NCBI GenBank assembly: GCA_017470605.1
Contig: JAFUYH010000006.1
Coordinates: 8,078 to 72,077, forward strand
Reading direction: 5' to 3'
Origin: Treponema sp.
GTDB taxonomy: Bacteria > Spirochaetota > Spirochaetia > Treponematales > Treponemataceae
Length of the DNA stretch: 64,000 bases
The notes under the pieces are model-generated. The model was not told the origin of the DNA. It was given only the letters and a program-made list of their open reading frames with translations, and did not search any database. Made by a program: the position numbers and the translations under genes. Of the stretch, positions 6,858 through 64,000 are shown one piece after another. Each line of letters opens with the position of its first letter. Within the stretch, counting starts at the first letter, position 1.

Positions 6858-7763
6858 TTAAGCATTTCTTGTTTTTTCTACAGCGTCGTGCTGTTCATTC
6901 AGAATTTCCATTACACGGTCTACGGTCTTCTGCTTTGGATCAGGGTCATCTGCAGGAAGTTTTGAAAGAACATCATTTCTGAATTCCTTACAATTGATTA
7001 CAGGACTTGCTGTAAGAGTAACTGTGTCTGCTTCAAGAATGTCTGAAAGCATATCTTCCGGGTCATCTGGATTCAGGCGCAGGGCATTTCCGTTAATAGA
7101 AACAAGAATCATGTTTTCAAAAAGGCGAAGATAACTGTCTATTTCCCTTAATCCCCGTTTTGTCTCTGGTTTGCCCGGGCGATAACGAGTTCCGCTTGGG
7201 AATACCAGAATGATTTGACCGCGCTTTTTGCAGCTGTCCATTGCCCTCATTGCGGCAAAGTTGATTTTGCGGGCCTTCTGCTCTTCTGCCTGTTTTTCTT
7301 CTTCAGAAATTGCCTTGCCTTCTACGGCGTTCAGAGAACGGGTCGGGTAAATTACTACGCGGGTAAAACCTTCTGTAAAGGCACGAACACCGGCACTTGC
7401 TTCATTCAGTTTCATTCCGGCAACGGCTACAATGCGGGATGCAAAGTCCTTTGCCCAAGGTTCGCCTTCTTTTTCCAAAAGATAAAGGATTGCTGGAAGG
7501 TCAAGATTGGAATAATGTTCCATAAGAATCAGGCCGTTTTTACCTTCATTTACAACTGATTCATAGAATTTCTTGAAATTTTCAATGTTGTTGAGTCCCG
7601 AATCGCTCTTAAAATATTCATCAAGAACGCGGTACATATATTTGCGCGACTCAAGATTTGCTTCTTCGTAAACCTTGGTCTCATCAATTTTTGCAGCAGC
7701 CTTAGAGATTTTTAACATCTCTGCAAAAAGGCTGCCGTATTTTTCTTTTAATGTGATTCCCAT
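6858..7763 (-). CDS. lysophospholipid/glycerol-phosphate acyltransferase family protein (PlsC-like)
   Basis: HX4D motif in MEHYSNLD and a block III-like VFPSGTR. Start set at ATG 7763 (GAGGA 8 nt upstream); the track start 7778 is TTG. Confidence 0.6.
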   Translation of the reverse strand: MGITLKEKYGSLFAEMLKISKAAAKIDETKVYEEANLESRKYMYRVLDEYFKSDSGLNNIENFKKFYESVVNEGKNGLILMEHYSNLDLPAILYLLEKEGEPWAKDFASRIVAVAGMKLNEASAGVRAFTEGFTRVVIYPTRSLNAVEGKAISEEEKQAEEQKARKINFAAMRAMDSCKKRGQIILVFPSGTRYRPGKPETKRGLREIDSYLRLFENMILVSINGNALRLNPDDPEDMLSDILEADTVTLTASPVINCKEFRNDVLSKLPADDPDPKQKTVDRVMEILNEQHDAVEKTRNA

Positions 7764-7832
7764 TACAAAAATCCTCAAAAAGTTGTTATATTCTTAAAAG
7801 TATATTCTATTTCAAGGATTTTGTACATTCCA

Positions 7833-9317: not shown

Positions 9318-9449
9318 AAATAACTCCTTAAGCCCCACAGGCAAAATCTAAAAAATAAATGCCCGCTCCCCAAACAGGTTACTCACTTTTTCTTAAGAGA
9401 ATTCTTATCAGACCAGGCAGCTTGCAGAATCCCCAAGCCTCAAATTCAC

Positions 9450-9477
9450 TTGTAAAAGCACAAATATGTAGTATACT
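9450..9477 (+). promoter_or_regulatory. sigma70-like promoter candidate for the GH10 gene
   Basis: TTGTAA, 16-nt spacer, TATACT; about 18 nt upstream of ATG 9495. Confidence 0.35.
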
Positions 9478-9494
9478 AGAATATGAGGAAGAAT

Positions 9495-11192: not shown

Positions 11193-11199
11193 TTTTTTA

Positions 11200-35806: not shown

Positions 35807-37372
35807 TCATTGAAACTCCCATTGGAGTGTATATGGAATTTCCTGACTATAATATCCAAAAGTTGAATAAACCTTTACATATACCTCGTCATAATCGTAA
35901 GCTGAAATATCAATCTCATTCTTTTCATCTTCAAAAACTGCATCTATAAGATTTCCTGCTTTGTATAATACCAACTGCAAATTATATTCAAGAAATTCAG
36001 GACTTATTAATTTGAACTGATTAACGGCATTTTCTTTATTCCCATCCTTCTTAAATACATACCAGTCATCATCATTTGAACACCATAAATATGAAACTAT
36101 TTGATTTTCTGGTTGATTCACAATATATGCATCAATTTGATAATTATTCGGTTCATATGTGTCTATATTTAAATAAGCAGAATTAATATCTTGCATTTTT
36201 GATAAGAACGATATATATGACGGACATAGCTCTAAAAACCGAAGTCTATTTGACGTATATTCCCATGAATCTTTTGAATAAGTTAGAAAATCTGGAAAAT
36301 AAATAGACATTCCTGTCGAAAATTCTGAACAATTTTTAATTAGAATATTTTTATACTCTCTTTCTAAAGCATCATCAAAAAGAATTTCTATATCAACAAC
36401 ATCACTCAAAAAATCATAATAATATGAACGACTTTCACTAATTGCTTTTAATCCAGAGAAAGACTCCATGTATTCTTCAAATTTGTGTAAAAACTTCTGC
36501 ATGCTATAATTTTCATCAATTCTAAAAGCAGAAATTGTAGTTTTCTGCTTTTCATAGTTTTTTGAATATGAATCACAAATTTGAATACATTTTTCATCAA
36601 TACTTTTATCCGAAAATAATATAGGTATAATATTATTATAAGGCATTCCATCTTCTGGAATTGAATCTTGAGAAAAAATAACAGTGTCTGTAAGACCTAT
36701 CATTTCAGCAGCAACTTCAACTGATGCCATAAAACAGGCATCCATCAATATTATATCAAAATGACCTATACAGGAACTTTTAATGGCATAAGATAATTCT
36801 TTTAAAGACAATGAATTATTTGAATCTTCATCAAAACAAATATTTCTGGAAGAGTTACGCACTACTCCTGTATATGAATCTCCAGATTTCCAGCCACCTC
36901 CATGATTCCATAAGTCCAGATACAGTTTCTTGCTATCATAGTGATTTTTAGCATACTGTAAAAATAGTTTTAATGTAGTTTCACTTCCTGTATCAATACT
37001 GTCATCTAACCATTCTAGAGAAACGCCTATATTATTATCTTCCAATTCAATAACATTCACCTCCTCATTCTCATAAGAAATCTGGTATAGTCTTGCTTCG
37101 TCCCAGCCATCTTCATAGAAATTGGAAGTATACCTATCTGCCAGAAGTAGAATAATATCATTTTCAGAGTTTAAGCCTTGCTTTATTTCCTCAAAATCTG
37201 AATAGACAGTTTTGTTTAATGAATTATCTCCTGCCATGTAAACAAGGAAAAGATTATTACATGTAATCCTTTCTGTTTTTGGAAAACAAGTACATGAAAG
37301 ACAACAAAGAATCAGCAACATTGAGATTATAGCTTGTGCAATAAATTTTTCCTTATCCATTCTTGTATTCAC
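35807..37372 (-). CDS. clostripain-like cysteine peptidase (family C11) lipoprotein with C-terminal PPC-like domain
   Basis: YMAGDNSL, catalytic His in LWNHGGGW, catalytic Cys in ILMDACFMAS. C-terminal EPNNYQ...SNDDDWYVF. Lipobox LCCLSC. AT-rich. Confidence 0.75.
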   Translation of the reverse strand: MNTRMDKEKFIAQAIISMLLILCCLSCTCFPKTERITCNNLFLVYMAGDNSLNKTVYSDFEEIKQGLNSENDIILLLADRYTSNFYEDGWDEARLYQISYENEEVNVIELEDNNIGVSLEWLDDSIDTGSETTLKLFLQYAKNHYDSKKLYLDLWNHGGGWKSGDSYTGVVRNSSRNICFDEDSNNSLSLKELSYAIKSSCIGHFDIILMDACFMASVEVAAEMIGLTDTVIFSQDSIPEDGMPYNNIIPILFSDKSIDEKCIQICDSYSKNYEKQKTTISAFRIDENYSMQKFLHKFEEYMESFSGLKAISESRSYYYDFLSDVVDIEILFDDALEREYKNILIKNCSEFSTGMSIYFPDFLTYSKDSWEYTSNRLRFLELCPSYISFLSKMQDINSAYLNIDTYEPNNYQIDAYIVNQPENQIVSYLWCSNDDDWYVFKKDGNKENAVNQFKLISPEFLEYNLQLVLYKAGNLIDAVFEDEKNEIDISAYDYDEVYVKVYSTFGYYSQEIPYTLQWEFQ

Positions 37373-38709
37373 GTTTCTTTAAGCCGGAGTCTTGCTATGT
37401 AAGAACCGGTCGTAATATAAAGGTAATCTCCTTCTGCATAACAGTGTCTTTCTCCACCAAAAATAGGAATATAATATTTACCCTTAATTATGCCCGTATC
37501 TATATCAATATAATATAAAAAACTGTTACTACAGCTTGGAATTACAAAATAATTTTTTACAATGCACCCTTCACAAAATAAATTTATAGAGTGATTTTCA
37601 TCAGTAAGTTTAGTTTTCCAATTAAGTCTTCCGTTCTTCGTATCTAAGCAATAAACACAGCCATAATCTGCTGCCAGAAAGAGATTTTCTTTATGTAAAA
37701 AAATCCCGTTTACACCATCAAAATTTTTATCATCAATTTCGTAAGTCCAGAGAGTATGATAGTTTTCCAATGAAACTCCATACACTATTAAATTTGACTT
37801 GCACTCTTCCCTATTAATAGTTTTCCAGCAACAAAAATAGCAGGTTTTTCCATCGGAAACTATGTTACTGTATATATTCGCTTCATAGATTTTTTCTTCA
37901 TTTGGAAATTCATAATCTATACAGTCTTTAGAATCATAATTGGGGGCAATTAATTTATTTAAATCATAGATAGCTAAAGGCTCGTATTTTTGATGCAGAA
38001 GAAGTTTATCTTCGACTATACATAAATCATGATCTTCTATGGGTAGAGAAATAGAACTAGGTATGAACCTTTTTATAACTTGATTCCCATTTGTATCAAG
38101 GAAAATAAGATAATATCCGTCATCATTCTTTTCTTCTGCATAATATATAATAAAATAATCCTTCCATTTTGGAATTGTAGGATTCCCTGTTACATTATAA
38201 TCAATTCGTCCATTTTCATCAGGAGTCCATCGCCATTGTACAGATAAATCTTCTGATTTTAAACAAAATAATTCAAATTCACCATGTTCAAATTGAATAA
38301 ATGCAGGCAAAGCCTTAACAAGTAACTGTTCATTATAACAACTTACTGATTCAAGATAAAAAGCATGTGAATCAATATATCCACTTTGAATAGCTTCTGT
38401 ATATAAAGTTTTTATAAGCGGAGAATCTCCATCTTTTCGAACCTTTACTATTTTTCCTGGAACTTCCTTGTATCCTGTTGTTACACAATAAAAATAATCT
38501 TCATCAGCTGCAATTGAATATTCTGTTATAAAAGAAATCTCATCAGGTAATAACTCAGCATCAAAAATATTTACATCTTCAAACTCTCCTATTTCCTTAT
38601 CTTTAACATCTTCTTCTGGTGAAAAAAAGGACATAATTAATTCACATGAAGAAAAAAGAAAGATAAGGATAATAGAAAGCAGTATACATAAAGTCTTTTG
38701 TTTTTTCAT
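37369..38709 (-). CDS. hypothetical lipoprotein, PQQ/BamB-like beta-propeller repeats suspected
   Basis: Lipobox FLFSSCEL. Repeat such as YGCVYCLDTKNGRLNWKTKL. 4-nt overlap with the C11 gene. AT-rich. Confidence 0.5.
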   Translation of the reverse strand: MKKQKTLCILLSIILIFLFSSCELIMSFFSPEEDVKDKEIGEFEDVNIFDAELLPDEISFITEYSIAADEDYFYCVTTGYKEVPGKIVKVRKDGDSPLIKTLYTEAIQSGYIDSHAFYLESVSCYNEQLLVKALPAFIQFEHGEFELFCLKSEDLSVQWRWTPDENGRIDYNVTGNPTIPKWKDYFIIYYAEEKNDDGYYLIFLDTNGNQVIKRFIPSSISLPIEDHDLCIVEDKLLLHQKYEPLAIYDLNKLIAPNYDSKDCIDYEFPNEEKIYEANIYSNIVSDGKTCYFCCWKTINREECKSNLIVYGVSLENYHTLWTYEIDDKNFDGVNGIFLHKENLFLAADYGCVYCLDTKNGRLNWKTKLTDENHSINLFCEGCIVKNYFVIPSCSNSFLYYIDIDTGIIKGKYYIPIFGGERHCYAEGDYLYITTGSYIARLRLKET

Positions 38710-38813
38710 TTCTATTATCCTTTAGTAATTATATCTAGTTCATTACAAAGTCCTTAGCTTGTATAAGTTTTTTTTTGCTATTATTATTTTACGTCATTGC
38801 TTTTAAAAAGATA

Positions 38814-38867
38814 GGTCATAAATGGTCATAAATTCATAGAATTATAAAAACATGACCTTTTATGACC
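38814..38867. promoter_or_regulatory. operator-like palindrome of four GGTCAT half-sites in a divergent promoter region
   Basis: GGTCATAAATGGTCAT (38814-38829), a 22-nt AT-rich spacer, then ATGACCTTTTATGACC (38852-38867). The arms match 15 of 16 as an inverted repeat. Confidence 0.55.
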
Positions 38868-38940
38868 ATGTTATGACTTCAAAAAAAATAATCTGGTGTT
38901 AAAATATGAATGTAAATTGAAGAAAAAGAGAGGAAATATA

Positions 38941-39486
38941 ATGTTTAACACAAACCTTGTTTATTCTTGTCAAAATCACATATGGAAATTACCTATTTGG
39001 GACTATCTTGTAAATGAAGTTTCAAATGTTTATAAATTGACACCAGAAGAAAAGAAGCAATTAGAAAACAGTTACACTGCAAAAATAATTGCCACAATAC
39101 CATTTGAAGCAGAATGTAAAAATCCTGAAAGAACAGCTATAGCTCATCTTTGTCTTTATGTTGCCGAATTAAAGGGTTTTCAAAAGTATTGCTCGCATCT
39201 ACCTACAGATGACAATGATATTTTTAATAGGTTAGCTTTCATTTCTACTTTTGAAAGTGGAAAACAAGAAATAATTAATCATGGAATGAATGTTCTGGCA
39301 TTAATAATGCTGGAAGGATATAAGAGGAGTATAGAAAAAGACAGAATCAATAATGTTTATAATCCTTTGATTTCTGGAAAGTGGAATTATCAGTCAATAA
39401 AAAATAAATTGCTTTGGGAAATAAATAAAATAAATGTACCAAATATTGATTGGATTTTTACAAATATTCCTTTAAACATATGGTAA
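38941..39486 (+). CDS. hypothetical cytoplasmic helical protein
   Basis: ATG 38941 preceded by GAGAGGAAA (the track start 38896 is GTG). No motif recognised. 7-nt overlap with the next gene. Confidence 0.5.
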   Translation: MFNTNLVYSCQNHIWKLPIWDYLVNEVSNVYKLTPEEKKQLENSYTAKIIATIPFEAECKNPERTAIAHLCLYVAELKGFQKYCSHLPTDDNDIFNRLAFISTFESGKQEIINHGMNVLALIMLEGYKRSIEKDRINNVYNPLISGKWNYQSIKNKLLWEINKINVPNIDWIFTNIPLNIW

Positions 39487-40280
39487 CAGAGATAGAAAAC
39501 AACCTGTACTCAAAAAAAACAAGACTTTTTATAAGGATTATTTCTTTAATTGCAATAACGATTCTTGTTTCTTCTAATTTAAGAAGAATAGATGTTCTTG
39601 GGCTTGAAAATTTGAATAAATATCCTCTGGAATTGCTTTCATTTATAGTAAATTTAATATCCATAGTTTTATCCATTTTTGTTATAGTTTTTCCGGCAAA
39701 AATAACCATACTGTCAACAATTTCATTTATATATGGAAGTCTAATCTTACTCTTTGAGCCTCAAAATAATCTTGGTATAATGATGTACGGACTTTCCATA
39801 ATAATGCTTTATGCACGCGGAACTTTGAACAAACATAAAAAGATAAAAGAAATATTTTTTTTCATCATCTATTTTGCATTAATTTTTTCTGAATTGCGCT
39901 TTGGAATTAAAACATTTATGAATTGTTTTCTGGAAAAAATAGCCTATTCCTTTGTTTTTGTACTCTGCTTAATTTTCCTTCATTTTTGCTCATTCGATTT
40001 ATTTGAAAATGCAACAACAAACAATACTCTGGACATTCAGAAATTTACAAAATTAAGAAAACGCGACGCAATCTGGCTAGTGGAAATATTAAATGGCAAA
40101 AAATACGAATATCTGGCTGTAGAATATCAAATGTCCCTGGGGTCTGTAAAAAACAGATTTAAAATTATCTTTGATGAAATCGGATGCGGAGACAAACAAG
40201 GCTTTTTCAATAAATATTCAGATTACAAAATATGTTACGGAGAAGAATTTTCCTTTGATAAAAACAAAAAGATTTTCTAA
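39480..40280 (+). CDS. polytopic membrane protein with C-terminal LuxR/GerE-type HTH
   Basis: Five to six hydrophobic helices. Then LRKRDAIWLVEILNGKKYEYLAVEYQMSLGSVKNRFKIIFDEIG, which fits the LuxR C-terminal pattern. ATG 39480 overlaps the upstream stop. Confidence 0.55.
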   Translation: MVTEIENNLYSKKTRLFIRIISLIAITILVSSNLRRIDVLGLENLNKYPLELLSFIVNLISIVLSIFVIVFPAKITILSTISFIYGSLILLFEPQNNLGIMMYGLSIIMLYARGTLNKHKKIKEIFFFIIYFALIFSELRFGIKTFMNCFLEKIAYSFVFVLCLIFLHFCSFDLFENATTNNTLDIQKFTKLRKRDAIWLVEILNGKKYEYLAVEYQMSLGSVKNRFKIIFDEIGCGDKQGFFNKYSDYKICYGEEFSFDKNKKIF

Positions 40281-40320: not shown

Positions 40321-43300
40321 ATGAAAACATCTAACAAGTCAAGTTTGATTACCGGCATCGTTTTGCTTTTGATTGCCGCTTTATTTTCTATCAGTCTTAT
40401 ACTTCAGCCTCTGGACTTTGGAGTTTCTGGTCCGGGACATAACAATATTTTCTATCTGCTTGGAAACATGCTTTATTCCGTTTATGGATTTTCCAGCATC
40501 CTGATTCCGGGCTTTCTTTTAATTGCAGGGCTTTCCTGCTTTGCCGCAAAATGGACTGCCCGCAAAACCATGCGTCTGCTTACCGCACTGGTTCCATTTT
40601 TTACCTGCGTTGTAACAGAAAATATCTGCCGTTCCATTCTTGCACTGGGGCATGATTCTTTTGCTGGCGTAAAAATGACAGTTGCCATCATAACAGGTGC
40701 CATGCTTGTTGTAATTGAATGGCTTGGCGTTGGCATCATTGCTGATAAATTAAATAAAAAATCTTCCCGCCCTTCTCTAAAAAAGTTTGAAGGATTCAAG
40801 AAGCCTGATACAGAATCTGAAGCTGATTATGAAGACAAAAGTTCTGTTTTTGACGAAGCACTTTCAGAAGTCGCTCCAAAATCTGATTCAGATGAAATTG
40901 ATGAAATTGCAGAAGATGATGAGCCAGAAAGTGATGAAGCAGAAAATTCTGACGACAGGGAAATTGATGATGATAAAACAGAAGCCCCTTCCGCTCCGCT
41001 TTTAACTCAGGAAGAATATGCCGCCCTCACCACACCGGAAGAAGATTTAGGCTGGAATCTGCCTCCTGCTCCAGAAGTACTTCCTCCAGAATACGACGAA
41101 GATTTTGATGAAAATGACCCTGCTCTGGAATTTCCTCCAAAAGAAGAAGATGAAACAGTCGCTGTAGAAGAAAGCCTTCCAGAAGCCGAATATATTGACG
41201 TTGACGAGCCTGACGACTCTGACAAGCCTGCAGAAGATTCTGCAGATGATGAAATCATAACTGATGAAGAAACAGCGCCTGCCTTTGATGTAAATTTTGC
41301 AGATGATGAAGAAGATGAAGAAATAGAGGAAAAAAAAACTTCTGAAGCCTATGATTTAGCAAGTCCTATTACTGCAGCACCTGTATTTGAAAATAATGAG
41401 GATGACGACTTTATTGAATGGCCGGAAGATTCAGATGCAGAAAATGACCCTGTAGTTATAGAAGAAAATGCAGAAGAAAGTCCCTATTCCACAGCCCGCT
41501 ACATTGATTCCGTAGTAGAAAATCCTAAGTTCCCCCATGGAATTATAATTCATGATGATAACGAAGAAGAAGAGGATGATGAAGACAGTGAACGCCCTCT
41601 TCCTGTAAAACCAAAGTTTCCTTCAAAAATAAAAATCCAAAGTTCACCAGAGCCAGAACGTGATGATTATTTTGAAGACAATTATATAGAAGACGAAACT
41701 CTTCCCTTCCCTAACTTTGATATAGAAGAGCCGGCTTACAGACCAAATGAAACAGAGGAGATAGAGGAGGAAGAAGACTCCCCTTTATCCATGCCGGAGG
41801 AAAGTCCGGCTGTTCAGACACAGACAGAAGAGACAGAAACACAGGTTCAGAGCCCGGTTCAGAATCAGCAGTATTATAAGCCTCTGCCTTCTGCAATTCC
41901 TGTAACAAATCCAAGAGAAACAGAAGAAAAGCCCAAAAGTTCAGGAATCTCTTATGCCGCTTCAAGTGTCTTTTCTGACATGGAAAATGAAATTCGCGAA
42001 AAACAGGCAGCAAATCAGCGGTCAGTTCAGGCAAAGTCAGTTCAGTCAAATCCAGTTCAGTCAGGTCAGCCGCTCGCCACAGACGCAGGCAGCCCAGTTC
42101 CGCCAGCCGCAGATTCTGCCCCAGAAGTTGACTTTGAAGGCAAGGTAATTGAACACGACTCTACCCCATCTCTGGAAGGCGGAGCAACAAATCTTACTGC
42201 AGACGAGCTTACAGACTTTTTTAATGCCCAGCAGGATGAAATTGCTGTTCGCCCAGAACGCCCAGAAAAAAAAGGCCCTTACTTCATCCCTTCTGACCTT
42301 TTAATTGCCTACAAAGACGACCAGTATTGGGTAATAGACGACGCAACAAAACAGGCCGCCATGAACCTTAAACAGACTCTTGCAGAATTCAACATAGAAG
42401 CCGAAATCACAGGAATTAAAAAAGGCCCTGTAGTTACAATGTTTGAAATTCTTCCGGCCCCAGGCGTAAAACTCAGTAAAATTGTTGCCCTGCAGGATAA
42501 CATAGCCCTTAGCCTTGCCGCCCAGTCAGTCCGAATTGTTGCCCCAATTCCGGGAAAACAGGCCGTAGGTATTGAAGTTCCAAACCGCCACCGTTCAGTT
42601 GTAGGCTTCCGTGAAATTATAGAAATGGACTTACCTGAATGGAATAAAATGGCAGTTCCGGTAATTCTTGGTAAAGACATTCTTGGAAAAGCCCAGCTTA
42701 TAGACCTTGTAAAAACACCCCACATGCTTATTGCAGGTGCAACAGGTTCCGGAAAATCAGTCTGTGTAAACTCGCTTATTCTTTCTATCCTCTACAAGCG
42801 TTCTTACCACGATGTAAAACTGATTTTGGTAGACCCTAAGGTAGTTGAACTTAAACTTTACAACAACATTCCTCATCTGCTTACTCCGGTTATTACAGAA
42901 CCAAAGAAGGCATTGCAGGCTTTGCAGTATTGTCTGTGCGAAATGGAACGCCGTTATGCCCTTCTGGACGGAATGGGTGTCCGCGATATTTCCAACTACA
43001 ACACAAAAATCAAGGAACAGAATATCTGCGCAGAAAAACTGCCTTATATTGTAGTCATCATAGATGAATTTGCAGACCTTATGGCAACCAGCGGAAAGGA
43101 ACTGGAAAACATTGTTGCCCGCCTTACAGCCATGAGCCGCGCCGTTGGTATTCACCTTGTACTTGCAACCCAGCGCCCTTCTGTAAACGTAATTACAGGT
43201 TTAATTAAGGCAAATATCCCAACCCGAATTGCCTTTATGGTTGCCAGCCGAACCGACTCTAACATCATTATTGATACAGTTGGTGCCGAAAAGCTGCTTG

Positions 43301-56205: not shown

Positions 56206-58203
56206 ATGGAAACTGGCAATTCTAATAACCTTCACCTTCGTCCTGTTATTAACGTAGATAAAGATAAATGTTGTAACTGCCACCGCTGTATCTCTGTCTG
56301 CCCTGTAAAGCTTTGTAATGACGGATCAGGCAACTTTGTTTCTTTGAACAGTGATTTGTGTATTGGATGTGGTTCTTGTATAGAAGCCTGTACACATGGT
56401 GCCAGAACAGGAATTGATGACGCTCCTCTTTTCTTTACGGAACTTAAAAAAGGAACCCCTATAATTGCAATTGTTGCTCCTGCTGTTGCCGTAAATTTTA
56501 AGGGACGAGACCTGGAATTAAACGGATGGCTTAAATCTATTGGCATTAAGGCTATTTTTGACGTTTCTTTTGGTGCAGAGCTTACTACAAAATCTTATGT
56601 AGAACAGATTAAAACAGAAAATCCACAGCTGATGATTTCTCAGCCATGCCCGGCCTTAATTTCTTTTATAGAAACATACCGCCCTAACCTGATTAAATAC
56701 CTTGCAAAAGGTGACAGCCCTATGGCTCATACTGTGGAATATATCCGCCATTATCACCCTGAATATAAAAACTGCAAGATTGCCGTTATTTCTCCATGTT
56801 ATGCAAAACGCCGCGAATTTGATGAAAACGGGCGTGGTGATTTTAACGTTACCATGAAGGGGCTGGATGCATACTTTAAGGCAAATAACATTGATCTTGC
56901 AAAATTCCCTAAGGTGGAATACGACAATCCTCTTGCTGAACGGGGAACTCTTTATTCTACTCCAGGCGGACTTATGCGCACTGCGGAACGCTTTGTTCCT
57001 GGAATTGGAATGCAGACAAGAAAGATAGAAGGTCATCCTGCAATTTTTGAATATCTTGCCCACCTTGATGAATCTTTGCAGAAAGGCATTAAACCTTACT
57101 ACCGCCTTGTAGACTGTCTTAACTGCGAAAAATGGAATACCCTTAATCCTCATGGAAGAAAAAGGGCCCTTAAAAAACTGAATAAAACTATTGATGAATG
57201 CTGGCAGCCAAAAATCTACGAAAGAAAATATGTTGACCGCAGTTCCGTTCATGATTCACTTTTAAAAGAACCAAACAAAGCAGAACTTAATAAGATTCTT
57301 ATAGAAATGGGCAAACATACTCAGGCAGACATGTATGACTGCGGTGCCTGCGGTTATGTTTCCTGCGAACAGATGGCCGTTGCCATTTTTAATGGAAAAA
57401 ACAAGCCTCATAACTGTCATCATTATGTTCTTAAAAAGGCAAATGAAGACCACACAGAAGAACTTATCCGCGCAGTAAGAAGTATTACTCAGGAAAGCGT
57501 AAGTCTTCTGCAGGGTACAAAAGCAAATGTTTCTTCCCTTACAGAAGTTACAGATAAAATGTCTCAGAACGTTTCTTCTTCTTCATCTGCAATAGAAGAG
57601 ATGGTAAGCAATATTTCTTCTATAAACAATATCATTGATAAAAACTTTACTATTGTAAGTGAACTTGAAGAGGCAACAAATACCGGTAGAAGCAATCTTT
57701 CTGAAGTAACCGAACTTGTAGGTGAAATTGAAAAGGAATCTGAACAGCTGGTAGAAATGAGCAAGGTAATTGGTCAGATTTCTGAACAGACAAACCTGCT
57801 TGCCATGAATGCCGCCATAGAAGCCGCCCATGCCGGTGAATTTGGTACAGGATTCAGTGTTGTTGCAGACGAAATCAGAAAACTTGCCGAAGATTCTGGA
57901 AATCAGGCAAAGCAGATTGAAAATGTCCTTAAATCTATCAAACAGATGATTGATAACGCCTACTCAAAAGCCGGAAATGTTCAGCAGGAATTTGATTCGG
58001 TTGTATCTTTGACCGGAAAAGTAAAAGAGCAGGAACTTTCTGTAAAGAATTCCATGGAAGAGCAGAATCAAGGTAATACAATGCTTCTTTCTAGCCTTTC
58101 ACAGATGAAAGAAGGAACCCGCGCTGTAGAAGATGCCGCAAACAACCTGCGCCAGGATACAGAAACCGTTATTGAATCTATAAACAACATAGGACAAAAG
58201 TAA
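56206..58203 (+). CDS. cytoplasmic methyl-accepting chemotaxis protein with N-terminal 2x[4Fe-4S] ferredoxin and [FeFe]-hydrogenase-like domain
   Basis: [12 protein letters not shown] and [12 protein letters not shown]-cluster-like remnants [26 protein letters not shown]. Putative Fe-S motif [19 protein letters not shown] signalling hairpin [36 protein letters not shown] saw no TM helix. Confidence 0.85.
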
Positions 58204-58522: not shown

Positions 58523-60868
58523 ATGCCTAAGATCGAATGTAACGAAAAACTGTTTTTTGATGCTATCGGAAAAAAATACACTTATGATGCTCTGGAAGAT
58601 GTGCTTCCTTGCGCTAAGGCTGAGCTTGATGAAAAGCCAGATATGAGCTTGCCTGAAAACGAACGCGTTGTAAAAATTGAATTGAATGATACTAACCGCC
58701 CTGACCTCTGGTCTACTAACGGTGTTGCCCGCCAGATTAAGCTGCACGAGGGTGGAAAGACTGTTGACTATATGAAGCTGATGGCTAACCACGGCAACAA
58801 CGATTACGGCGACCGTATTGTTGAGGTTGACCCAAAGCTTAAGGATATCCGCCCTTACATGGTTGCTTTTATGATTACCGGTAAGGCAATTGATGATCCT
58901 ATGCTTAAGGACATTATCCAGACTCAAGAAAAGCTGGCATGGAACTTTGGCCGCAAGCGTAAGTCTATTTCTATGGGCCTTTACCGCGTTGACCAGATTA
59001 AATTCCCTGTAAAGTACCACGCTGTTGACCCGGACAAGACTTCGTTTGTGCCTTTGCAGTGCGACGCTCCAATGACCTGCCGCCAGATTCTTACTGACCA
59101 TCCTAAGGGAAAAGATTTCGGCTGGATTTTGGCTGATATGAAAAAGTTCCCTCTTTTGAGCGATGCTAAGAACGAAGTGCTTTCTATGGCACCGATTATC
59201 AATAGTGCAACTTTGGGCGCTGTTCAGGTTGGTGATAAGGACCTTATGGTTGAGCTCACAGGGGACAATATTGAAAACCTGATTTTGTCTGCTAACATCG
59301 TTGCCTGCGACTTTGCTGATCAGGGTTATGAAATTAAACCTATTCTTGTAAAGCATCCTTATGATACTGGCCTTGGAAAGGACATCATGGTTCCTTACTA
59401 CTTCCAGCCAACTACAAAGACAACTCTCGGCGCTGTAAACAAGCTGCTTGGTTCTGATTTTGATATTGAAAAGGTAAAAGATGCTCTCATCAGAATGGGT
59501 AGCACCGTGGTGGTTGAGCCTGTCGAAACCACCTCTGGTAAAGACTACTCTATCACACTCTCGCCAGCTCCTTACCGCAACGACTTCCTCCACGAAGTTG
59601 ATATTATTGAAGATGTTATGATTGGCTGTAACGTTGCCGCATTCGAGCCACGCACTCCACAGGACTTCACTGTTGGCCGCCTCCTGCCACTTACAGAGTT
59701 CAGCCGCAAGGCAAAGACTTTGATGGTTGGTCTCGGCTATCAGGAAATGATTTTCAACTATGTTGGTTCTAAGAAAGACTACATCGACAATATGCTGATT
59801 GACGGTTCTAAGGTTATTGAAATTGCAAACCCTATGAGCGAAAACTATCAGTTTATCCGTCCTGAGATTTTGTCTAGCCTTTGCCGTGCTGAGGCCGGTT
59901 CTGCCAACGCTATGTACCCTCACAAGATTTTTGAAATCGGTAAGGTTGCATATCTTAAGGAAGATGAAAACACCGGAACTATTACACGCCAGCACCTGGG
60001 CTTCCTGACTGCAAGTGCTAACGCTAACTTCAATACTTTGGCTTCGGAAGTTTCTTCACTTGTTTACTTCCTCGACCACGAGTACAAGGTTGTTGAAAGC
60101 GAAGATCCACGCTTTATTCCTGGCCGCCAGGCTCAGCTGATTGTTGATGGTCAGCCAGCAGGTGTATTTGGTGAAGTTCACCCTCAGGTTCTCGAGAACT
60201 GGGGAATTACAGTTCCTTGTGTTGCCGGCGAACTCGACCTGGAAACACTTATGGCTACTGCTGATACAAGGACTGATGCTGAAAAGGCAAAAGACAAGAA
60301 AGCAAATGCGGCCCCTGAGGCACTCGAAGGGGGCGCTGCAAACAATCAGAAATCAGAAGCAGAGACAAACCCTGTGAAATACTTCAACGAGCACATTGAG
60401 CTCCGCGTAGCAAAAATCACAAAGGTAGAAACAAACCCACAGGGCGACAAGCTCTATATCGAAACTTTGGATGATGGAACAGGCACAGAACGCATTATTC
60501 AGAGCGGTCTCCGCCCATACCTCACAGAAGAAGAACTCCTCGGCCAGCACGTAATCATCGCTGCTAACCTCGCTCCTCGTAAGATGAAGGGCGTAGAAAG
60601 CCGCGGAATGCTCCTTGCCTGCGATTACACAGAAGACGGCAAAGAAAAGGTTGAACTCCTCACTGCTCCATGGGCAGCTCCAGGAACAATCATCCAGCTC
60701 GAAGGTGCCGAATACACCGGCGAAAAGCCAGCCAAAATCGACATCGACCACTTCTGTAAGATTGAATACCGCATAAGCGGCAAATGCTTTACAATCGCAG
60801 GAAAGAAGGCAACTGCTGCCGGAAAGCCTGTTACAACAAACAAGGCTGATAACTGCGAAGTTTGCTAA
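58523..60868 (+). CDS. pheT: phenylalanine-tRNA ligase beta subunit, archaeal/eukaryal type, with added C-terminal Trbp111/EMAPII-like tRNA-binding OB domain
   Basis: YRNDFLHEVDIIEDV and NPMSENYQFIRPEILSSL. Lys/Ala-rich linker DAEKAKDKKANAAPE. OB domain VAKITKVETNPQGDKLYIETLDDGTGTERIIQSGL...NLAPRKMKGVESRGMLLA. Confidence 0.9.
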   Translation: MPKIECNEKLFFDAIGKKYTYDALEDVLPCAKAELDEKPDMSLPENERVVKIELNDTNRPDLWSTNGVARQIKLHEGGKTVDYMKLMANHGNNDYGDRIVEVDPKLKDIRPYMVAFMITGKAIDDPMLKDIIQTQEKLAWNFGRKRKSISMGLYRVDQIKFPVKYHAVDPDKTSFVPLQCDAPMTCRQILTDHPKGKDFGWILADMKKFPLLSDAKNEVLSMAPIINSATLGAVQVGDKDLMVELTGDNIENLILSANIVACDFADQGYEIKPILVKHPYDTGLGKDIMVPYYFQPTTKTTLGAVNKLLGSDFDIEKVKDALIRMGSTVVVEPVETTSGKDYSITLSPAPYRNDFLHEVDIIEDVMIGCNVAAFEPRTPQDFTVGRLLPLTEFSRKAKTLMVGLGYQEMIFNYVGSKKDYIDNMLIDGSKVIEIANPMSENYQFIRPEILSSLCRAEAGSANAMYPHKIFEIGKVAYLKEDENTGTITRQHLGFLTASANANFNTLASEVSSLVYFLDHEYKVVESEDPRFIPGRQAQLIVDGQPAGVFGEVHPQVLENWGITVPCVAGELDLETLMATADTRTDAEKAKDKKANAAPEALEGGAANNQKSEAETNPVKYFNEHIELRVAKITKVETNPQGDKLYIETLDDGTGTERIIQSGLRPYLTEEELLGQHVIIAANLAPRKMKGVESRGMLLACDYTEDGKEKVELLTAPWAAPGTIIQLEGAEYTGEKPAKIDIDHFCKIEYRISGKCFTIAGKKATAAGKPVTTNKADNCEVC
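59506..59533 (+). repeat. copy of the 18.2-kb hairpin element inside the pheT coding sequence
   Basis: CGTGGTGGTTGAGCCTGTCGAAACCACC matches 18202-18229 at 27 of 28 positions. It encodes VVVEPVETT in frame. Confidence 0.8.
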
Positions 60869-60991: not shown

Positions 60992-61240
60992 ATGCCACAG
61001 GAAGATTATTCGAAATTACTAAATACAATTTTAGCTCTTTCTTTTGAACAACGCTTAAATTTGCTTTCTGTTGTAGCAGAGTCATTACAAGATAATGTTC
61101 CCACACCTCCAGATATGTCCGTTTCTTCAATTGCCGAATTAAACCAAAAAATAGATGAAGGTCTTTCAGATATAAAAGCCGGAAGAATTATTCCAGCTGA
61201 GGTGGTTAATCAACAACTTCATGAAAGATACGGAATATGA
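60992..61240 (+). CDS. type II antitoxin-like protein (addiction-module component)
   Basis: The N-terminal LSFEQRLNLLSVVAESL pattern is typical of unstable-antitoxin components. C-terminal KIDEGLSDIKAGRIIPAEVV. AAGGAGG RBS. The stop TGA overlaps the ATG of a toxin-like stub. Confidence 0.5.
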   Translation: MPQEDYSKLLNTILALSFEQRLNLLSVVAESLQDNVPTPPDMSVSSIAELNQKIDEGLSDIKAGRIIPAEVVNQQLHERYGI

Positions 61241-61281
61241 ATAATTTCAAAGTATTCTACTCAAAAAAAAACAAAAGCCAC
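61237..61281 (+). pseudogene. truncated RelE/ParE-like toxin gene (only ~11 codons of native sequence)
   Basis: The ATGA overlap with the antitoxin stop opens MNNFKVFYSKK, a typical RelE/ParE start. The reading frame then runs into the pheT-like fragment out of frame. Confidence 0.4.
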
Positions 61282-61354
61282 AAAGCCAGCCAAAATCGAC
61301 AACGACCACTTCTGCAAAATCGAATACAGCGTGTCGGGCAAGTGCTTCACAATC
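61282..61354 (+). repeat. diverged duplicate of pheT nucleotides 60724-60796 (att-like core)
   Basis: Hand alignment gives 61 of 73 identical, most differences at third codon positions. In the pheT frame it reads KPAKIDNDHFCKIEYSVSGKCFTI then TAA. Confidence 0.8.
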
Positions 61355-61370
61355 TAACCTTGTAAATTTA

Positions 61371-61422
61371 AAAGTGAAACAGCCAATTCTGCTTTTACGT
61401 AGAATTGACTGTTTCACTTTTA
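61371..61422. terminator. long stem-loop (about 20 bp), bidirectional terminator candidate
   Basis: AAAGTGAAACAGCCAATTCT-10 nt-AGAATTGACTGTTTCACTTT with one mismatch. It lies between the pheT-like fragment and the convergent AT-rich genes. Confidence 0.7.
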
Positions 61423-61442: not shown

Positions 61443-61715
61443 TTATGCTTTTTGAAAATTGGTTTTGTATTTTACTTCTTGTATAGTTCCCACCGATGAA
61501 TGCATTTCACATAAAGGGGCAATGTAGTTTAACTTATCAATTATTTTTCCTGCATTATCACATTTATTTACTATGAAAAATTTTGTGGTATCTTTTGAGC
61601 AGTTTAAGCAACAACACTCCATATTCTCAGGAATTGCTTTTTCAGATTCCCTTATAACTTTTACACATCTTGGTTTAACACCAGCAAGATATCTAAGTTT
61701 GTCTAAAATATTCAT
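61443..61715 (-). CDS. hypothetical Cys-rich 90-aa protein
   Basis: AAGGAG RBS 8 nt upstream. Cys pattern ECCCLNC...KCDN...LCEMH. AT-rich. 34 nt downstream of the large ORF. Confidence 0.55.
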   Translation of the reverse strand: MNILDKLRYLAGVKPRCVKVIRESEKAIPENMECCCLNCSKDTTKFFIVNKCDNAGKIIDKLNYIAPLCEMHSSVGTIQEVKYKTNFQKA

Positions 61716-61749
61716 AATTGAATCTCCTTTATTTTAACTAATAAAATTA

Positions 61750-64000
61750 TTATATTTTGTTATACATTATTCCATCTACAATAAAAACTATAAGACTAAT
61801 CAAAATTGAAATAAGTGTACCAGCAACAGGATGCCCTATATTTAAACCAATTTTCAATCCACCAGCAATAATAGCAGGAATTATCCATATATAAAAAAAA
61901 TAAATTATTGGTGCTAAGGAAGCAAGAGGACCATGCCAATCTTGAGACTCTTTCATTTTATCTTTAGCAAGAGAGAAAATAGTTCCAATTAATGAAGCAC
62001 ATAATGAACCAAAAATTACATATCCACACTTTTGTAATAAAATTCCTCCCAATTTTACAAGAGGAATTGAAAAAATAATTCCTATAAGAATAATTAAAGC
62101 TAATATGCACTTCTTTTTTCTTTCTCGTTTTAACCATAACCTATTCTTTTCTAAAGATTCTTGTAATCTTTTATCAAACTCTATATTTTTTGCTTTATCT
62201 TCTTGTTTTTTCTCTTCCTGGAGTCGCTTTTCTTCTTGTTTTTGCCTTTCTTCCAATAAAGGACGCTCTTTTATTTCCTGTAAATCTTTTTTTAAAACAA
62301 TTCCACTTTGATAAACAACCATACGCTTTGTCGGCTCCAAACAAAGAATTGTATTATTATCTATCTTCCAATTAATTTTTCTTTCTATTCCTTCATATAT
62401 TTCTTCATTAAAAAATGCCTCCTCATCTATTAAATCTTCATTCCAAAGTCCATACCCTTTTGCTTGTGAATAGCGATACTCTGATTTATGGACACTATCG
62501 ATTAATATGACTTTCCCCGTTTCACCATATTTTGATTGAAGGAAAGTATAAGATAGAGTTGGAAGATATAGAGATTCATTACGATTTGAAGAATATTTAT
62601 CAAAATCTTTAACCGTTTCTAACTGCTCTTCTTTATTAAAACCATTCTCGCTTAAATGATCATATATTATATTAATTAAAATCTGATTTTTATAAACCTT
62701 TCTTGATAAGTATAGTCTCACTGGATTATAACTATCTTCGATTCCATCATAGGCAGTAAAATGATAAGGCGACATTTGATGTTCTCGTATATCGTCTTTT
62801 ACCATATCAATTAAACAGTCTGTTTCTTCCCAATTCTCAGGATGCAAATAGATAGCTTTAGTCAGTCTAGTTTCCAATTTATTTTCAAAATAATATCCCT
62901 CAAGTTTATATCCACTTTTTGATATAATATATCTACCATCACTGTCTCTTATATAATCTTTACATATTTTGTTTTCATAAACCTGTATATCCATAGGATG
63001 TTTAGATTTCTTTATTACCTCGAATTCTTTACCGAAAGCTTCATATCCCGCTCGAATATCCAAATATGGACTTTCAGAAGCTATTAGCTCTTCACATTTT
63101 ACAATCAATTTTTTAATGCTCTCACAATATTCACCGCCTATCAATTCGTAGTCATTTGAAAATTCTGTAAGAAGTTCTTTTGTTTTTTGCTGACATTCAT
63201 CTCTAAGATTTTTGATAAGTGATACAATATTATCCTCAATACTCTTAAAATCTGAATCTCCTAATGCCTTAATTGAATAAAGGCCATCTGCTCTAATAAC
63301 CTCTTCTAAAATAGAAATAGCTTTCTCATTTTGATTTAACAGAGTAAGGGCTCTGGCCTGATTATAAGCAGATTCCAGCATTGCAGAAGACAAAGCATAA
63401 CTTTTTGCATTTGCTTTTACAGAAGCTTCCAGATATTTTGTTACATCATCGATATTATTTGCCAAACGGCTTTCATTTGAAAGAATATAATTTGCATATC
63501 CGACATAAAAATAGAATTCGGCAGCCATCTTTTTTGCTTCTTCCGATTCATCAATATCTGGTGTTATATATTTACAAGCGTTAATAAATGATTCAAGTGC
63601 CTTTTGAACATCAACTACATTGCTGAATTCACTCATTCCAAAAAGATAAATCTTTCCCATTAAAGCCCAAGATAAATAGTCTGTTTTATTTTTTTCAACA
63701 GCCTGTGTTATATCTTCTAAAGCTTCCTCATAAAACTGTTTTTGAGCATTGGCTTGTGCTCTTCTAAAAAGTTCTCGGCTTGCAGTTAAAAGAGGATTGT
63801 TTACAATATCATGAATGGCATCAAGTTTTTCACAAATTTCAGTTCCCCAAGTATTCACAGTCTTCTGGAGTCTGTCAAATCCTGCAGACATACTTGCACT
63901 CATGCTTCCAATTGCATTCTGAACTCCACCAAATCCAAGATCAAGCGTATTATTAAGTTCATTAAATCCTTCATTAAAAGAATTTGCAAGGAGTGTACTT
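61750..64000 (-). CDS. large hypothetical protein: helical TPR-like N-terminal region, unknown middle domain, Lys/Glu coiled coil, four C-terminal TM helices; probably extends beyond the window
   Basis: The track gives 61750-63903 (717 aa). The same frame is open from 63904 to 64000 (...NSFNEGFNELNNTLDLGFGGVQNAIGS) with no RBS before ATG 63903. Coiled coil EERQKQEEKRLQEEKKQEDKAKN. TM helices ILALIILIGIIFSIPLV, YVIFGSLCASLIGTIFSL, LAPIIYFFYIWIIPAIIAGGL, GTLISILISLIVFIVDGI. Confidence 0.6.
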   Translation of the reverse strand, partial: STLLANSFNEGFNELNNTLDLGFGGVQNAIGSMSASMSAGFDRLQKTVNTWGTEICEKLDAIHDIVNNPLLTASRELFRRAQANAQKQFYEEALEDITQAVEKNKTDYLSWALMGKIYLFGMSEFSNVVDVQKALESFINACKYITPDIDESEEAKKMAAEFYFYVGYANYILSNESRLANNIDDVTKYLEASVKANAKSYALSSAMLESAYNQARALTLLNQNEKAISILEEVIRADGLYSIKALGDSDFKSIEDNIVSLIKNLRDECQQKTKELLTEFSNDYELIGGEYCESIKKLIVKCEELIASESPYLDIRAGYEAFGKEFEVIKKSKHPMDIQVYENKICKDYIRDSDGRYIISKSGYKLEGYYFENKLETRLTKAIYLHPENWEETDCLIDMVKDDIREHQMSPYHFTAYDGIEDSYNPVRLYLSRKVYKNQILINIIYDHLSENGFNKEEQLETVKDFDKYSSNRNESLYLPTLSYTFLQSKYGETGKVILIDSVHKSEYRYSQAKGYGLWNEDLIDEEAFFNEEIYEGIERKINWKIDNNTILCLEPTKRMVVYQSGIVLKKDLQEIKERPLLEERQKQEEKRLQEEKKQEDKAKNIEFDKRLQESLEKNRLWLKRERKKKCILALIILIGIIFSIPLVKLGGILLQKCGYVIFGSLCASLIGTIFSLAKDKMKESQDWHGPLASLAPIIYFFYIWIIPAIIAGGLKIGLNIGHPVAGTLISILISLIVFIVDGIMYNKI

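What the first reader, a model, noticed from the sequence alone, without database searches (positions are those of the whole stretch)
61443..64000. AT-rich cassette beside the pheT att-like scar: sensor-like giant protein with a membrane-helix tail plus a Cys-rich partner, a candidate undescribed defence-like module
Composition drops sharply here: I counted 16 G+C in 62101-62160 against 32 in 42541-42600. Two co-oriented minus-strand genes lie 34 nt apart. Gene 1 is at least 717 aa, and its frame is still open at position 64000 with no stop or RBS upstream of the listed ATG, so the true N-terminus is probably outside the window. It has a helical TPR-like first third (QKQFYEEALEDITQAVEKNKTDYLSWALMGKIYLF) and a ~330-aa middle region with no motif I recognise. 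A strongly charged coiled coil follows, then four hydrophobic helices at the extreme C-terminus, with no signal peptide. Gene 2 is a 90-aa Cys-rich protein (ECCCLNC..KCDN..LCEMH) with a strong RBS. A cytoplasmic repeat or sensor region coupled to a membrane-inserting tail resembles abortive-infection or defence islands. So does the location next to an integration scar and a toxin-antitoxin relic. I cannot assign either protein to a named family.
Basis: partly seen in the sequence, partly recalled or inferred. Interest (0 to 1): 0.75.

Follow-up and report, generated by a model that had tools for sequence, protein, structure and literature searches.

The report
Mobile membrane-anchored TPR protein cassette
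This is a horizontally acquired cassette in a gut Treponema: a membrane-anchored repeat protein with a constant front half and a swappable back half, followed by a small cysteine-rich partner. It belongs to an undescribed family that looks like a conflict or defence module, but no function has been shown.

Summary
Two minus-strand genes lie 34 nt apart in DNA of 30% G+C, against 40% for the window. The large gene runs off the window; the full protein is 834 aa.

It has a constant N-terminal module of about 400 aa, a beta-rich domain with no detectable fold relative, a coiled coil and four C-terminal membrane helices. It belongs to an unnamed family of more than 200 proteins. Nearly all that could be placed are Treponema or other spirochaete metagenome-assembled genomes (MAGs).

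The N-module is one cluster, but the C-terminal halves fall into 41. One relative is about 98% identical over residues 1-400 and 20-30% after that.

The 90-aa partner keeps six Cys and one His invariant. Diverged copies (44-92% identity) follow four family members at two chromosomal sites. Other members carry an unrelated 204-aa partner instead.

None of 80 related pheT loci has the cassette, and some sites are empty. The pheT "scar" brackets only a decayed toxin-antitoxin remnant.

PADLOC, Pfam, PDB and the viral structure library name neither protein. A defence-like, membrane-acting role is the best guess but is inferred. Distant relatives sit beside a triple AAA+ ATPase and zinc-ribbon genes.

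The parts
61750..64000 (-). 3' 2251 nt of the large gene. Stop codon TAA at 61750-61752. The window holds residues 86-834 of the 834-aa protein P0001. The true start lies about 254 nt beyond the window end.
63880..63999 (-). End of the conserved, low-confidence N-terminal helical region (residues 86-125). It is rich in Gly, Ser and Asn and has GF motifs.
63010..63879 (-). TPR-like helical solenoid, residues 126-415. It is the constant module that defines the family and holds the near-invariant motifs C141, DxIHDIVNNPLLTxSRE and EKNKTD.
62290..62997 (-). Variable beta-rich central domain, residues about 420-655. It is swapped between close relatives and has no fold relative in PDB or in BFVD (viral protein structures).
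62119..62289 (-). Charged coiled-coil helix, residues about 656-712. It ends in RERKKK just before the first membrane helix, which suggests this end faces the cytoplasm.
61753..62118 (-). C-terminal membrane tail with four hydrophobic helices (residues 717-735, 738-756, 780-798, 812-830) and the conserved loop LKIGLxxGHP.
61724..61729 (-). Ribosome-binding site AAGGAG, 8 nt upstream of the small gene's ATG.
   Evidence: read directly
61443..61715 (-). 90-aa basic protein (pI 8.9). C34, C36, C39, C52, C69 and H72 are invariant in five versions, so it is a putative zinc-binding partner.
61369..61422 (.). Perfect-stem hairpin with 22-nt arms, -30.6 kcal/mol, z-score -8.4, just downstream of the small gene. 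It is the likely operon terminator. It is not found in the related pheT loci.
61282..61354 (+). Displaced 73-nt fragment of the pheT 3' end, 84% identical to 60724-60796. It marks the old end of pheT and the proximal edge of the cassette.
60992..61281 (+). Remnant toxin-antitoxin insertion lying between the two pheT repeat copies. It holds an 82-aa RelB/ParD-like gene (a weak match, below cutoff). A toxin-like start, MNNFKVFYSKK, overlaps that gene's stop codon and is cut off by the pheT fragment.

Best explanation
The cassette is an accessory, horizontally exchanged unit of a gut Treponema, inserted in the variable gap between pheT and a 2-hydroxyacid dehydrogenase gene.

**Components**
- A divergent XRE-type repressor gene, just outside the window.
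- The 834-aa protein.
- A tightly coupled 90-aa Cys/His protein.

**Shown**
- The large protein has no signal peptide. Four helices at its C-terminus are hydrophobic enough to span a membrane, and a basic RERKKK stretch precedes the first.
- Its N-terminal 400-residue TPR module is constant across the family.
- The roughly 430 residues after it have been replaced again and again by recombination.

**Inferred topology**
- About 710 residues face the cytoplasm.

**Inferred mechanism**
1. The XRE protein keeps expression low.
2. The variable beta-rich domain, presented on the TPR scaffold, recognises a changing target, most likely a component of a phage or other invader.
3. Binding is passed through the coiled coil to the membrane helices.
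4. The helices rearrange or oligomerise and damage the membrane. This halts the infected cell, as in abortive infection.
5. The small zinc-type protein acts on the constant N-module as an inhibitor or adaptor. Its presence does not track the variable domain or the tail.

The descriptive part is secure. The defence and membrane-effector mechanism is a best guess.
For: **Acquired and variably present**
- The region is 30% G+C against 40-47% for the flanks.
- None of 80 related pheT loci (PheT 63-96% identical) carries either gene.
- Empty sites exist, with 78-349 nt between pheT and the dehydrogenase gene. Other relatives carry 1.3, 3.2, 8 or more than 10 kb of different low-GC cargo.

**Exchange and diversification**
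- In relative locus L026 the regulator plus codons 1-430 are 96% identical in DNA, while the flanking dehydrogenase gene is 83% identical. The protein falls from 97-100% to 20-30% identity after residue 400.
- Family-wide, the N-modules form 1 cluster and the C-halves form 41. Forty-six pairs share at least 85% N-module identity but have dissimilar C-halves.

**Unit structure**
- A divergent XRE gene lies upstream in 5 of 9 distinct contexts, and a 144/147-aa gene in 2-3 others.
- A small gene follows within 13-49 nt in 8 of 9 contexts.
- The 90-aa partner has invariant Cys and His residues in five versions, at two chromosomal sites.
- The XRE protein matches PADLOC regulator models such as HTH_VI, control protein and CapH.

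**Neighbourhood**
- Nearby genes include PIN/Phd, RelB/YoeB, HicAB, ToxN, DpnII restriction-modification and a WYL regulator.
- A KilA-N gene beside the regulator matches PADLOC candidate PDC-S22 at 3e-132.

**Architecture:**
Against: - No experiment exists, and neither protein matches any PADLOC model.
- The membrane tail is not a shared effector module. Among 1.8 billion representative proteins it matches only three clusters from the same family.
- No enzymatic or pore-forming domain is recognisable.
- Several family members lack membrane helices and end in RCC1, ankyrin or zinc-ribbon domains instead. The tail may therefore be only an anchor.
- Distant members are linked to a SpoVK/CbbX/EccA-type triple AAA+ ATPase. 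This suggests a machine whose purpose is unknown.
- The association with toxin-antitoxin and defence genes was not tested against a background rate.
- The only two close DNA copies of the small gene differ by 7 non-synonymous and 0 synonymous codon changes. That is too few to show selection either way.
Confidence: 0.4

Rival explanations
1. The protein is a membrane-anchored adaptor for a SpoVK/CbbX/EccA-type AAA+ machine. The constant N-module docks onto, or is remodelled by, a triple AAA+ ATPase encoded elsewhere in this genome. The variable half selects the substrate or the location. The purpose could be protein remodelling, export or quality control at the membrane, and need not be defence.
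For: - In 8 more distant loci, one or two family paralogues are followed by an 855-870-aa protein and a 240-aa zinc-ribbon protein.
- The larger protein has three AAA domains with AAA_lid_6. Its TIGR spore_V_K, CbbX and EccA scores are 1e-158 to 1e-130.
- Several paralogues with different C-termini share one ATPase gene (L009, L017).
- The invariant motifs of the N-module are kept in the window's protein.
- The small partner's genotype does not track the variable half or the tail, which fits action on the constant module.
Against: - No such ATPase is in the 64-kb window or next to any member of the regulator-linked clade.
- That clade carries its own regulator and small partner, so it looks self-contained.
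- The rest of the genome could not be searched.
Confidence: 0.25
2. The cassette is a selfish addiction module of the toxin-antitoxin type. The large membrane protein is the toxin, the small Cys-rich protein is its antidote, and the XRE protein is an autoregulator. Its only role is to keep the island in the genome.
For: - The genes are tightly coupled, 34 nt apart with a strong ribosome-binding site.
- The cassette lies among classical toxin-antitoxin pairs at every site examined.
- It is mobile between sites.
Against: - An 834-aa toxin with a recombining 250-aa recognition-like domain is atypical for a toxin-antitoxin system.
- Two unrelated partner families (90 aa and 204 aa) pair with related tails without any correlation.
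- In L032 a family member has no tightly linked partner.
Confidence: 0.12
3. It is a polymorphic toxin with an immunity gene, used in competition between bacteria. The constant N-terminus would be a delivery module, the variable C-terminus the toxin, and the downstream gene the immunity protein.
For: The layout is a constant N-terminus, 41 unrelated C-terminal types and a small gene immediately downstream.
Against: - There is no signal peptide and no secretion-linked domain.
- The C-halves carry binding-type repeats (RCC1, ankyrin) or membrane anchors, not recognisable toxin domains.
- The same 90-aa gene (92% identical) follows two proteins whose C-halves are only 20-30% identical. The supposed immunity protein therefore does not co-vary with the supposed toxin.
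Confidence: 0.07
4. It is an ordinary housekeeping membrane scaffold of Treponema that happens to be AT-rich.
For: TPR membrane proteins are common scaffolds. Some family members sit near core genes such as der or the chemotaxis operon.
Against: - It is absent from all 80 related pheT loci, and empty sites exist.
- Its site differs between strains.
- Its composition is foreign.
- The C-terminal half has been swapped repeatedly.
Confidence: 0.03

Closest known systems
Single-protein abortive-infection or defence sensors with a membrane effector (for example the transmembrane effectors of CBASS, Pycsar and retron systems, or RexB-type proteins)
   Same: A cytoplasmic recognition region is coupled to membrane helices. 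The gene sits in variable, toxin-antitoxin-rich islands and is controlled by a small divergent XRE or WYL-type regulator.
   Different: - There is no sequence or fold match to any of them.
- There is no nucleotide-sensing domain.
- The tail is specific to this family.
- Function is untested.
TPR-bearing immune sensors of the STAND/Avs type
   Same: A repeat scaffold is combined with a highly variable recognition part. The family diversifies within one lineage.
   Different: - There is no P-loop NTPase domain.
- The polarity is reversed: here the TPR part is the constant module and the non-repeat beta domain is the variable one.
EccA (type VII secretion ATPase: an N-terminal TPR domain fused to a CbbX-like AAA domain)
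   Same: In distant relatives a TPR protein is paired with an ATPase of the same CbbX/SpoVK/EccA clade.
   Different: - The two are separate genes.
- The ATPase has three AAA domains and is absent from this window and this clade.
- Foldseek did not place the EccA TPR domain among the top hits.
- From general knowledge, spirochaetes are not known to have type VII secretion.
Polymorphic toxin-immunity loci
   Same: A constant N-terminus, a cassette-like variable C-terminus and a small downstream gene.
   Different: There is no secretion domain and no toxin domain. The downstream gene does not co-vary with the variable part.
Generic TPR proteins such as MamA and designed consensus TPR arrays
   Same: Residues 126-415 superpose on TPR superhelices (TM-score normalised to the target 0.73-0.90 for 130-180-residue targets). 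NCBIfam TPR_END_plus is matched above its cutoff.
   Different: Only the scaffold is shared. The invariant motifs, the N-terminal 125 residues and everything after residue 415 have no counterpart.

Membership tests
TPR repeat proteins (Pfam TPR clan; NCBIfam NF047558 TPR_END_plus) | Tandem helix-turn-helix repeats of about 34 residues forming a superhelix, detected by repeat or capping models | tested here: met
   NF047558 scores 37.9 bits against a cutoff of 32. Pfam TPR_2, TPR_8 and TPR_14 hits are all below their gathering scores. AlphaFold gives a helical solenoid at residues 126-415 with pLDDT mostly 85-97. Foldseek top hits are TPR arrays with probability 1.0.
Known or candidate anti-phage systems in PADLOC-DB v2 | A match of the protein to a system component model | tested here: not met
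   No family matches the large protein, the 90-aa protein or the RelB-like protein at E <= 1. Only neighbours match: the KilA-N gene to PDC-S22 at 3e-132, and the XRE gene to regulator models.
STAND/Avs/NLR-like sensors | A central P-loop STAND NTPase domain | tested here: not met
   No NTPase domain is found by Pfam or NCBIfam. The model is all-helical, then beta-rich, with no Rossmann-like core.
Polymorphic toxin systems | An N-terminal secretion or trafficking domain | tested here: not met
   No signal peptide is seen. No LXG, RHS, PAAR, TPS or similar domain is found at E <= 1.
Polymorphic toxin systems | An immunity gene that co-varies with the C-terminal toxin domain | tested here: not met
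   The 90-aa gene is 92% identical downstream of P0001 and P0002, whose C-halves are 20-30% identical. Partner type does not track the middle domain or the tail.
EccA / CbbX / SpoVK AAA+ proteins | An AAA domain with the AAA_lid_6 lid | tested here: not met
   It is absent from the window's protein and from the whole window (tblastn). It appears only as a separate neighbouring gene in distant relatives.
RRNPP-type peptide sensors (HTH fused to TPR) | A DNA-binding HTH fused to the TPR sensor, plus a secreted signalling peptide | tested here: not met
   The HTH is a separate, divergent gene. A Rap protein appears only at Foldseek rank 28, at the generic TPR level. The 90-aa protein has no signal peptide on inspection of its sequence.
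Type II toxin-antitoxin, RelB/ParD-RelE/ParE (the neighbouring relic at 60992-61281) | An antitoxin model match and an intact cognate toxin gene | tested here: inconclusive
   The RelB_ParD model matches at E 0.0027 with 17.9 bits against a cutoff of 60. The overlapping toxin-like ORF is cut off after about 15 codons by the pheT fragment.
Zinc-ribbon or treble-clef small proteins (the 90-aa partner) | Two pairs of metal ligands (CxxC or CxxH) kept in all homologues | tested here: inconclusive
   C36-x2-C39 and C69-x2-H72, plus C34 and C52, are invariant in five versions at 44-92% identity. No Pfam, NCBIfam or PHROG model matches. No structure was predicted, and metal binding cannot be tested here.

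The most novel reading that the evidence does not exclude
The constant N-terminal TPR module is the docking handle of a previously undescribed spirochaete conflict system. Its full form would be a set of interchangeable sensor proteins (41 or more C-terminal types: membrane tails, RCC1, ankyrin, zinc ribbons), a triple SpoVK/CbbX/EccA-type AAA+ ATPase and zinc-ribbon proteins. The window's cassette would be a streamlined version: regulator, sensor-effector and a small zinc protein. The system would diversify its recognition domain by cassette recombination, much as immune receptors do.
Probability: 0.2. Interest if true: 0.7.

Novelty: new variant of a known kind. Interest (0 to 1): 0.5.

Why it matters
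If the cassette acts in defence or conflict, it would add a family with an unusual design to the bacterial immune repertoire. The repeat scaffold is constant and a non-repeat recognition domain is exchanged by recombination. It would come from spirochaetes of animal guts, a group in which almost no defence biology has been tested. The link in distant relatives to a CbbX/SpoVK/EccA-type triple AAA+ ATPase would give that ATPase clade a new biological setting. Finally, the gap between pheT and the dehydrogenase gene is a well-defined integration hot spot, with empty and filled alleles. It can be mined for further cargo.

Tried and rejected
**Searches that returned nothing useful**
- Pfam, NCBIfam, PHROGs and PADLOC scans of both proteins gave only the TPR signal.
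- A weak bDLD2 (bacterial Death-like domain) hit at E 0.1 was followed into the two eLife conflict-system papers. Neither mentions CbbX, EccA, SpoVK or spirochaetes. The lead was dropped.
- Foldseek of the whole model returned generic TPR only.
- Foldseek of a separate model of residues 400-700 against PDB and BFVD gave no hit better than E 0.1.
- A family profile against PDB sequences gave only low-complexity noise.
- The membrane tail, searched alone against 1.8 billion representative proteins, matched only its own family. It is not a shared effector module.
- Searches of IMG/VR, GenBank phages and PLSDB plasmids found no relatives, so a prophage or plasmid origin is unsupported.
- No tRNA gene lies nearby.
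- Literature searches for a TPR-membrane-XRE defence system, or for a defence role of AAA_lid_6 ATPases, found nothing relevant.

**Ideas rejected or corrected**
- *The 90-aa gene is an orphan.* The word-indexed search found only two clusters. This was later overturned, when 44-47% identical copies were found beside other family members.
- *A third pheT repeat marks the far edge of the island.* None was found.
- *The hairpin at 61369-61422 is the ancestral pheT terminator.* It is absent from all related pheT loci.
- *Partner type tracks the tail or the middle domain.* It does not.
Full report
**1. The observation**

The large frame stays open to the last full codon of the window.

An identical 8-kb stretch on a public 81.8-kb contig (locus L001) shows that the gene starts about 254 nt beyond the window. 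It encodes the 834-aa protein P0001, annotated only as a hypothetical protein of a Treponema sp. MAG.

The region has 30.4% G+C against 40.2% for the window, and only 5% of same-size windows are as low or lower. Open frames of 750 and 90 codons are very unlikely by chance in this composition, at about 1e-31 and 2e-4.

An AAGGAG site lies 8 nt before the small gene's ATG. A perfect 22-bp-stem hairpin follows the small gene at 61369-61422, with -30.6 kcal/mol and a z-score of -8.4.

**2. Anatomy of the large protein**

AlphaFold2 with a 120-sequence alignment gave mean pLDDT 73 and pTM 0.61. A second model covered residues 400-700, with pLDDT 73.6 and pTM 0.70. Together they give five parts:

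| Residues | Feature |
|---|---|
| 1-125 | Conserved but low-confidence helical region, rich in Gly, Ser and Asn |
| 126-415 | Confident helical solenoid |
| about 420-655 | Beta-rich domain |
| 655 to about 712 | Long charged helix |
| 717-830 | Four hydrophobic helices (hydropathy scan) |

The solenoid is TPR-like. NCBIfam TPR_END_plus scores above its cutoff. Pfam TPR hits are below threshold. Foldseek returns designed TPR arrays and MamA.

There is no signal peptide, and RERKKK precedes the first membrane helix. I therefore infer that both termini face the cytoplasm, with about 710 residues in the cytoplasm.

The beta-rich domain has no match better than E 0.1 in PDB or BFVD. A family profile finds nothing in PDB sequences. 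PADLOC and PHROGs have no meaningful match for either protein.

**3. The family**

The large protein has more than 200 homologues at E <= 0.001. Of 17 loci recovered from species-representative genomes, 16 are Treponema, Treponemataceae or other spirochaete MAGs from guts. One weak hit is a Methylococcaceae MAG.

- All 120 best homologues share the N-terminal 400 residues as a single cluster. Near-invariant motifs include C141, DxIHDIVNNPLLTxSRE, EEALEDI, EKNKTD and FSNV.
- Their C-terminal halves fall into 41 clusters. Forty-six pairs have at least 85% identical N-modules but dissimilar or unalignable C-halves.
- About three quarters end in one to six membrane helices. The rest end in RCC1 repeats, zinc ribbons, or ankyrin repeats plus a domain shared with MzaA and PDC-M72A.

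The closest relative, P0002, is 97-100% identical over residues 1-390 and 20-30% over residues 420-700. In DNA, the regulator plus codons 1-430 are 96% identical, while the flanking dehydrogenase gene is only 83% identical. This shows recent exchange of the constant part and replacement of the variable part.

**4. The small gene and the real unit**

The word-indexed search found only two clusters for the 90-aa protein. Reading the neighbourhoods of family members found more copies:

- a 92% identical copy after P0002;
- 44-47% identical copies directly after P0019 and P0017, at a different chromosomal site between an AP-endonuclease gene and a chemotaxis operon.

In all five versions C34, C36, C39, C52, C69 and H72 are invariant, along with several short blocks. 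The protein is basic, with pI 8.9. The CxxC and CxxH pairs suggest a small metal-binding fold. This is an inference.

Other members carry an unrelated 204-209-aa protein in the same slot. That family is also narrow (20 clusters) and has no Pfam domain.

Upstream and divergent there is usually an XRE-type HTH gene of 100-118 aa. It is present in 5 of 9 distinct contexts, including this one. It matches PADLOC regulator models. In other contexts a 144/147-aa gene takes that place.

Partner type does not follow the N-module, the middle domain or the tail. The unit is therefore regulator, large protein and small partner, with interchangeable outer genes.

**5. Where it sits**

Eighty metagenomic loci hold PheT relatives of 63-96% identity. 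None has the large gene or the small gene.

| Relatives | Between pheT and the dehydrogenase gene |
|---|---|
| L075, L044, L087, L052 | 78-349 nt (empty site) |
| L047, L048, L040, L059 | 1.3, 3.2, 8 or more than 10 kb of other low-GC cargo |

The 8-kb island of L040 includes a WYL regulator and an XRE gene 57% identical to this cassette's regulator.

Extra copies of the last 150-170 nt of pheT occur in several relatives: L039 and L059 have two, L046 has three. The 3' end of pheT is thus a recurrent integration target.

In the window, the two repeat copies (60724-60796 and 61282-61354) enclose only an 82-aa RelB/ParD-like gene and the first codons of a toxin-like ORF. The scar therefore belongs to a decayed toxin-antitoxin element inserted later. 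The cassette lies beyond it, and no repeat marks its far edge.

The rest of the low-GC island lies outside the window (L001 positions about 7500-13300). It holds the XRE gene, a KilA-N gene matching PADLOC candidate PDC-S22 at 3e-132, and a Phd/PIN pair. KilA-N proteins include the abortive-infection protein BstA (PMC8585504).

At other sites, family members sit next to RelB/YoeB, HicAB, PIN, ToxN and a DpnII restriction-modification system. No relatives were found in IMG/VR, GenBank phages or PLSDB plasmids.

**6. A different core in distant relatives**

In eight loci whose N-modules are 40-50% identical to this one, one or two family paralogues are followed by two conserved genes:

- an 855-870-aa protein with three AAA domains of the SpoVK/CbbX/EccA type, with TIGR model E-values of 1e-158 to 1e-130 and AAA_lid_6;
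- a protein of about 240 aa that begins with a zinc ribbon.

No such ATPase is present in the window or beside any member of the regulator-linked clade. I found no description of this arrangement in the papers searched.

**7. Interpretation**

*Secure:*
- This is an accessory, exchanged, three-gene cassette of an undescribed family.
- It encodes a tail-anchored TPR protein whose C-terminal half is repeatedly replaced.
- It has a genuinely co-occurring small Cys/His partner.
- It sits in a variable hot spot.

*Inferred:* The function. The best-supported reading has confidence about 0.4. It is a conflict or defence module in which the variable domain recognises a changing target and the coiled coil and membrane helices deliver a membrane insult. 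XRE repression and the small protein would modulate it.

*Main rival:* About 0.25. The constant module is a handle for the AAA+ machine seen in distant relatives, and the tail is just an anchor.

*Less likely:* A pure addiction module (0.12), a polymorphic toxin (0.07) and a housekeeping scaffold (0.03). Reasons are given under rival explanations.

**8. Verdict**

The family is not in Pfam, NCBIfam (apart from a generic TPR cap), PADLOC, PHROGs, PDB or BFVD.

Its design is a variant of a familiar theme, a sensor joined to a membrane tail in a defence-type island, with an unusual constant-TPR and variable-domain polarity. Interest is moderate at 0.5. The family-level pattern is striking, but function is untested and the hosts are uncultured.

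Noticed in passing
window 60724-60796 and 61282-61354; L039 12205-12377 and 15589-15761; L046 7397-7568, 8498-8624 and 11769-11936; L059 12145-12313 and 17906-18056: The last 70-170 nt of pheT are duplicated once or twice downstream in several related genomes and bracket low-GC inserts. The 3' end of this protein-coding gene is a recurrent integration target. No integrase gene was identified among the inserts examined.
   Followed up: partly
window 60992-61281: An 82-aa RelB/ParD-like gene has a stop codon that overlaps the start of a toxin-like ORF (MNNFKVFYSKK...). That ORF is cut off after about 15 codons by the displaced pheT fragment. This is a decayed toxin-antitoxin pair.
   Followed up: partly
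L001 8665-9480 (outside the window, about 0.8 kb beyond its end): A 271-aa KilA-N protein next to the cassette's regulator matches PADLOC candidate system PDC-S22 at E 3e-132. A Phd/PIN pair follows it.
   Followed up: partly
L007 8373-11713; L035 10031-15045; also L008, L009, L010, L013, L017, L018: Distant family members form an operon with a triple AAA+ ATPase of the SpoVK/CbbX/EccA type and one or two zinc-ribbon proteins. Some loci have two family paralogues in tandem, with small Sel1-repeat genes upstream. I found no description of this gene set.
   Followed up: partly
L119 5001-8219; L121 1590-4742; L122 1578-4130: A second chromosomal hot spot lies between an AP-endonuclease gene and a CheW/CheB/CheR operon. 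In different samples it carries different versions of the cassette: an 851-aa protein with the 204-aa partner, or 745-751-aa proteins with the 90-aa partner.
   Followed up: partly
L040 12524-19813: In a close relative the same pheT hot spot holds an 8-kb island. It contains a WYL regulator (HTH_11-WYL-WCX), an XRE gene 57% identical to this cassette's regulator and an 83-aa zinc-ribbon protein. It also holds a 118-aa protein matching the FlhB/YscU C-terminal domain, and several proteins with no match.
   Followed up: no
window 35807-40280: A second low-GC patch (28-30% G+C) holds a clostripain-family (C11) peptidase and a lipoprotein-like protein with beta-propeller repeats. Two further proteins have no family match, and one of them has several hydrophobic segments.
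   Followed up: partly
window 56206-58203: A 665-aa chemoreceptor joins 4Fe-4S and Fe-hydrogenase-like domains to a methyl-accepting signalling domain (Pfam families listed). It may be a redox-sensing receptor.
   Followed up: no
window 58523-60868: The PheT protein has the B1, B5 and core domains of the archaeal-type beta chain plus a C-terminal tRNA-binding domain. As far as I know this form is usual in spirochaetes.
   Followed up: no
window 61369-61422: A 22-bp perfect-stem hairpin lies between the small gene and the pheT fragment. It is absent from all 80 related pheT loci, so it arrived with the cassette rather than being the old pheT terminator.
   Followed up: yes
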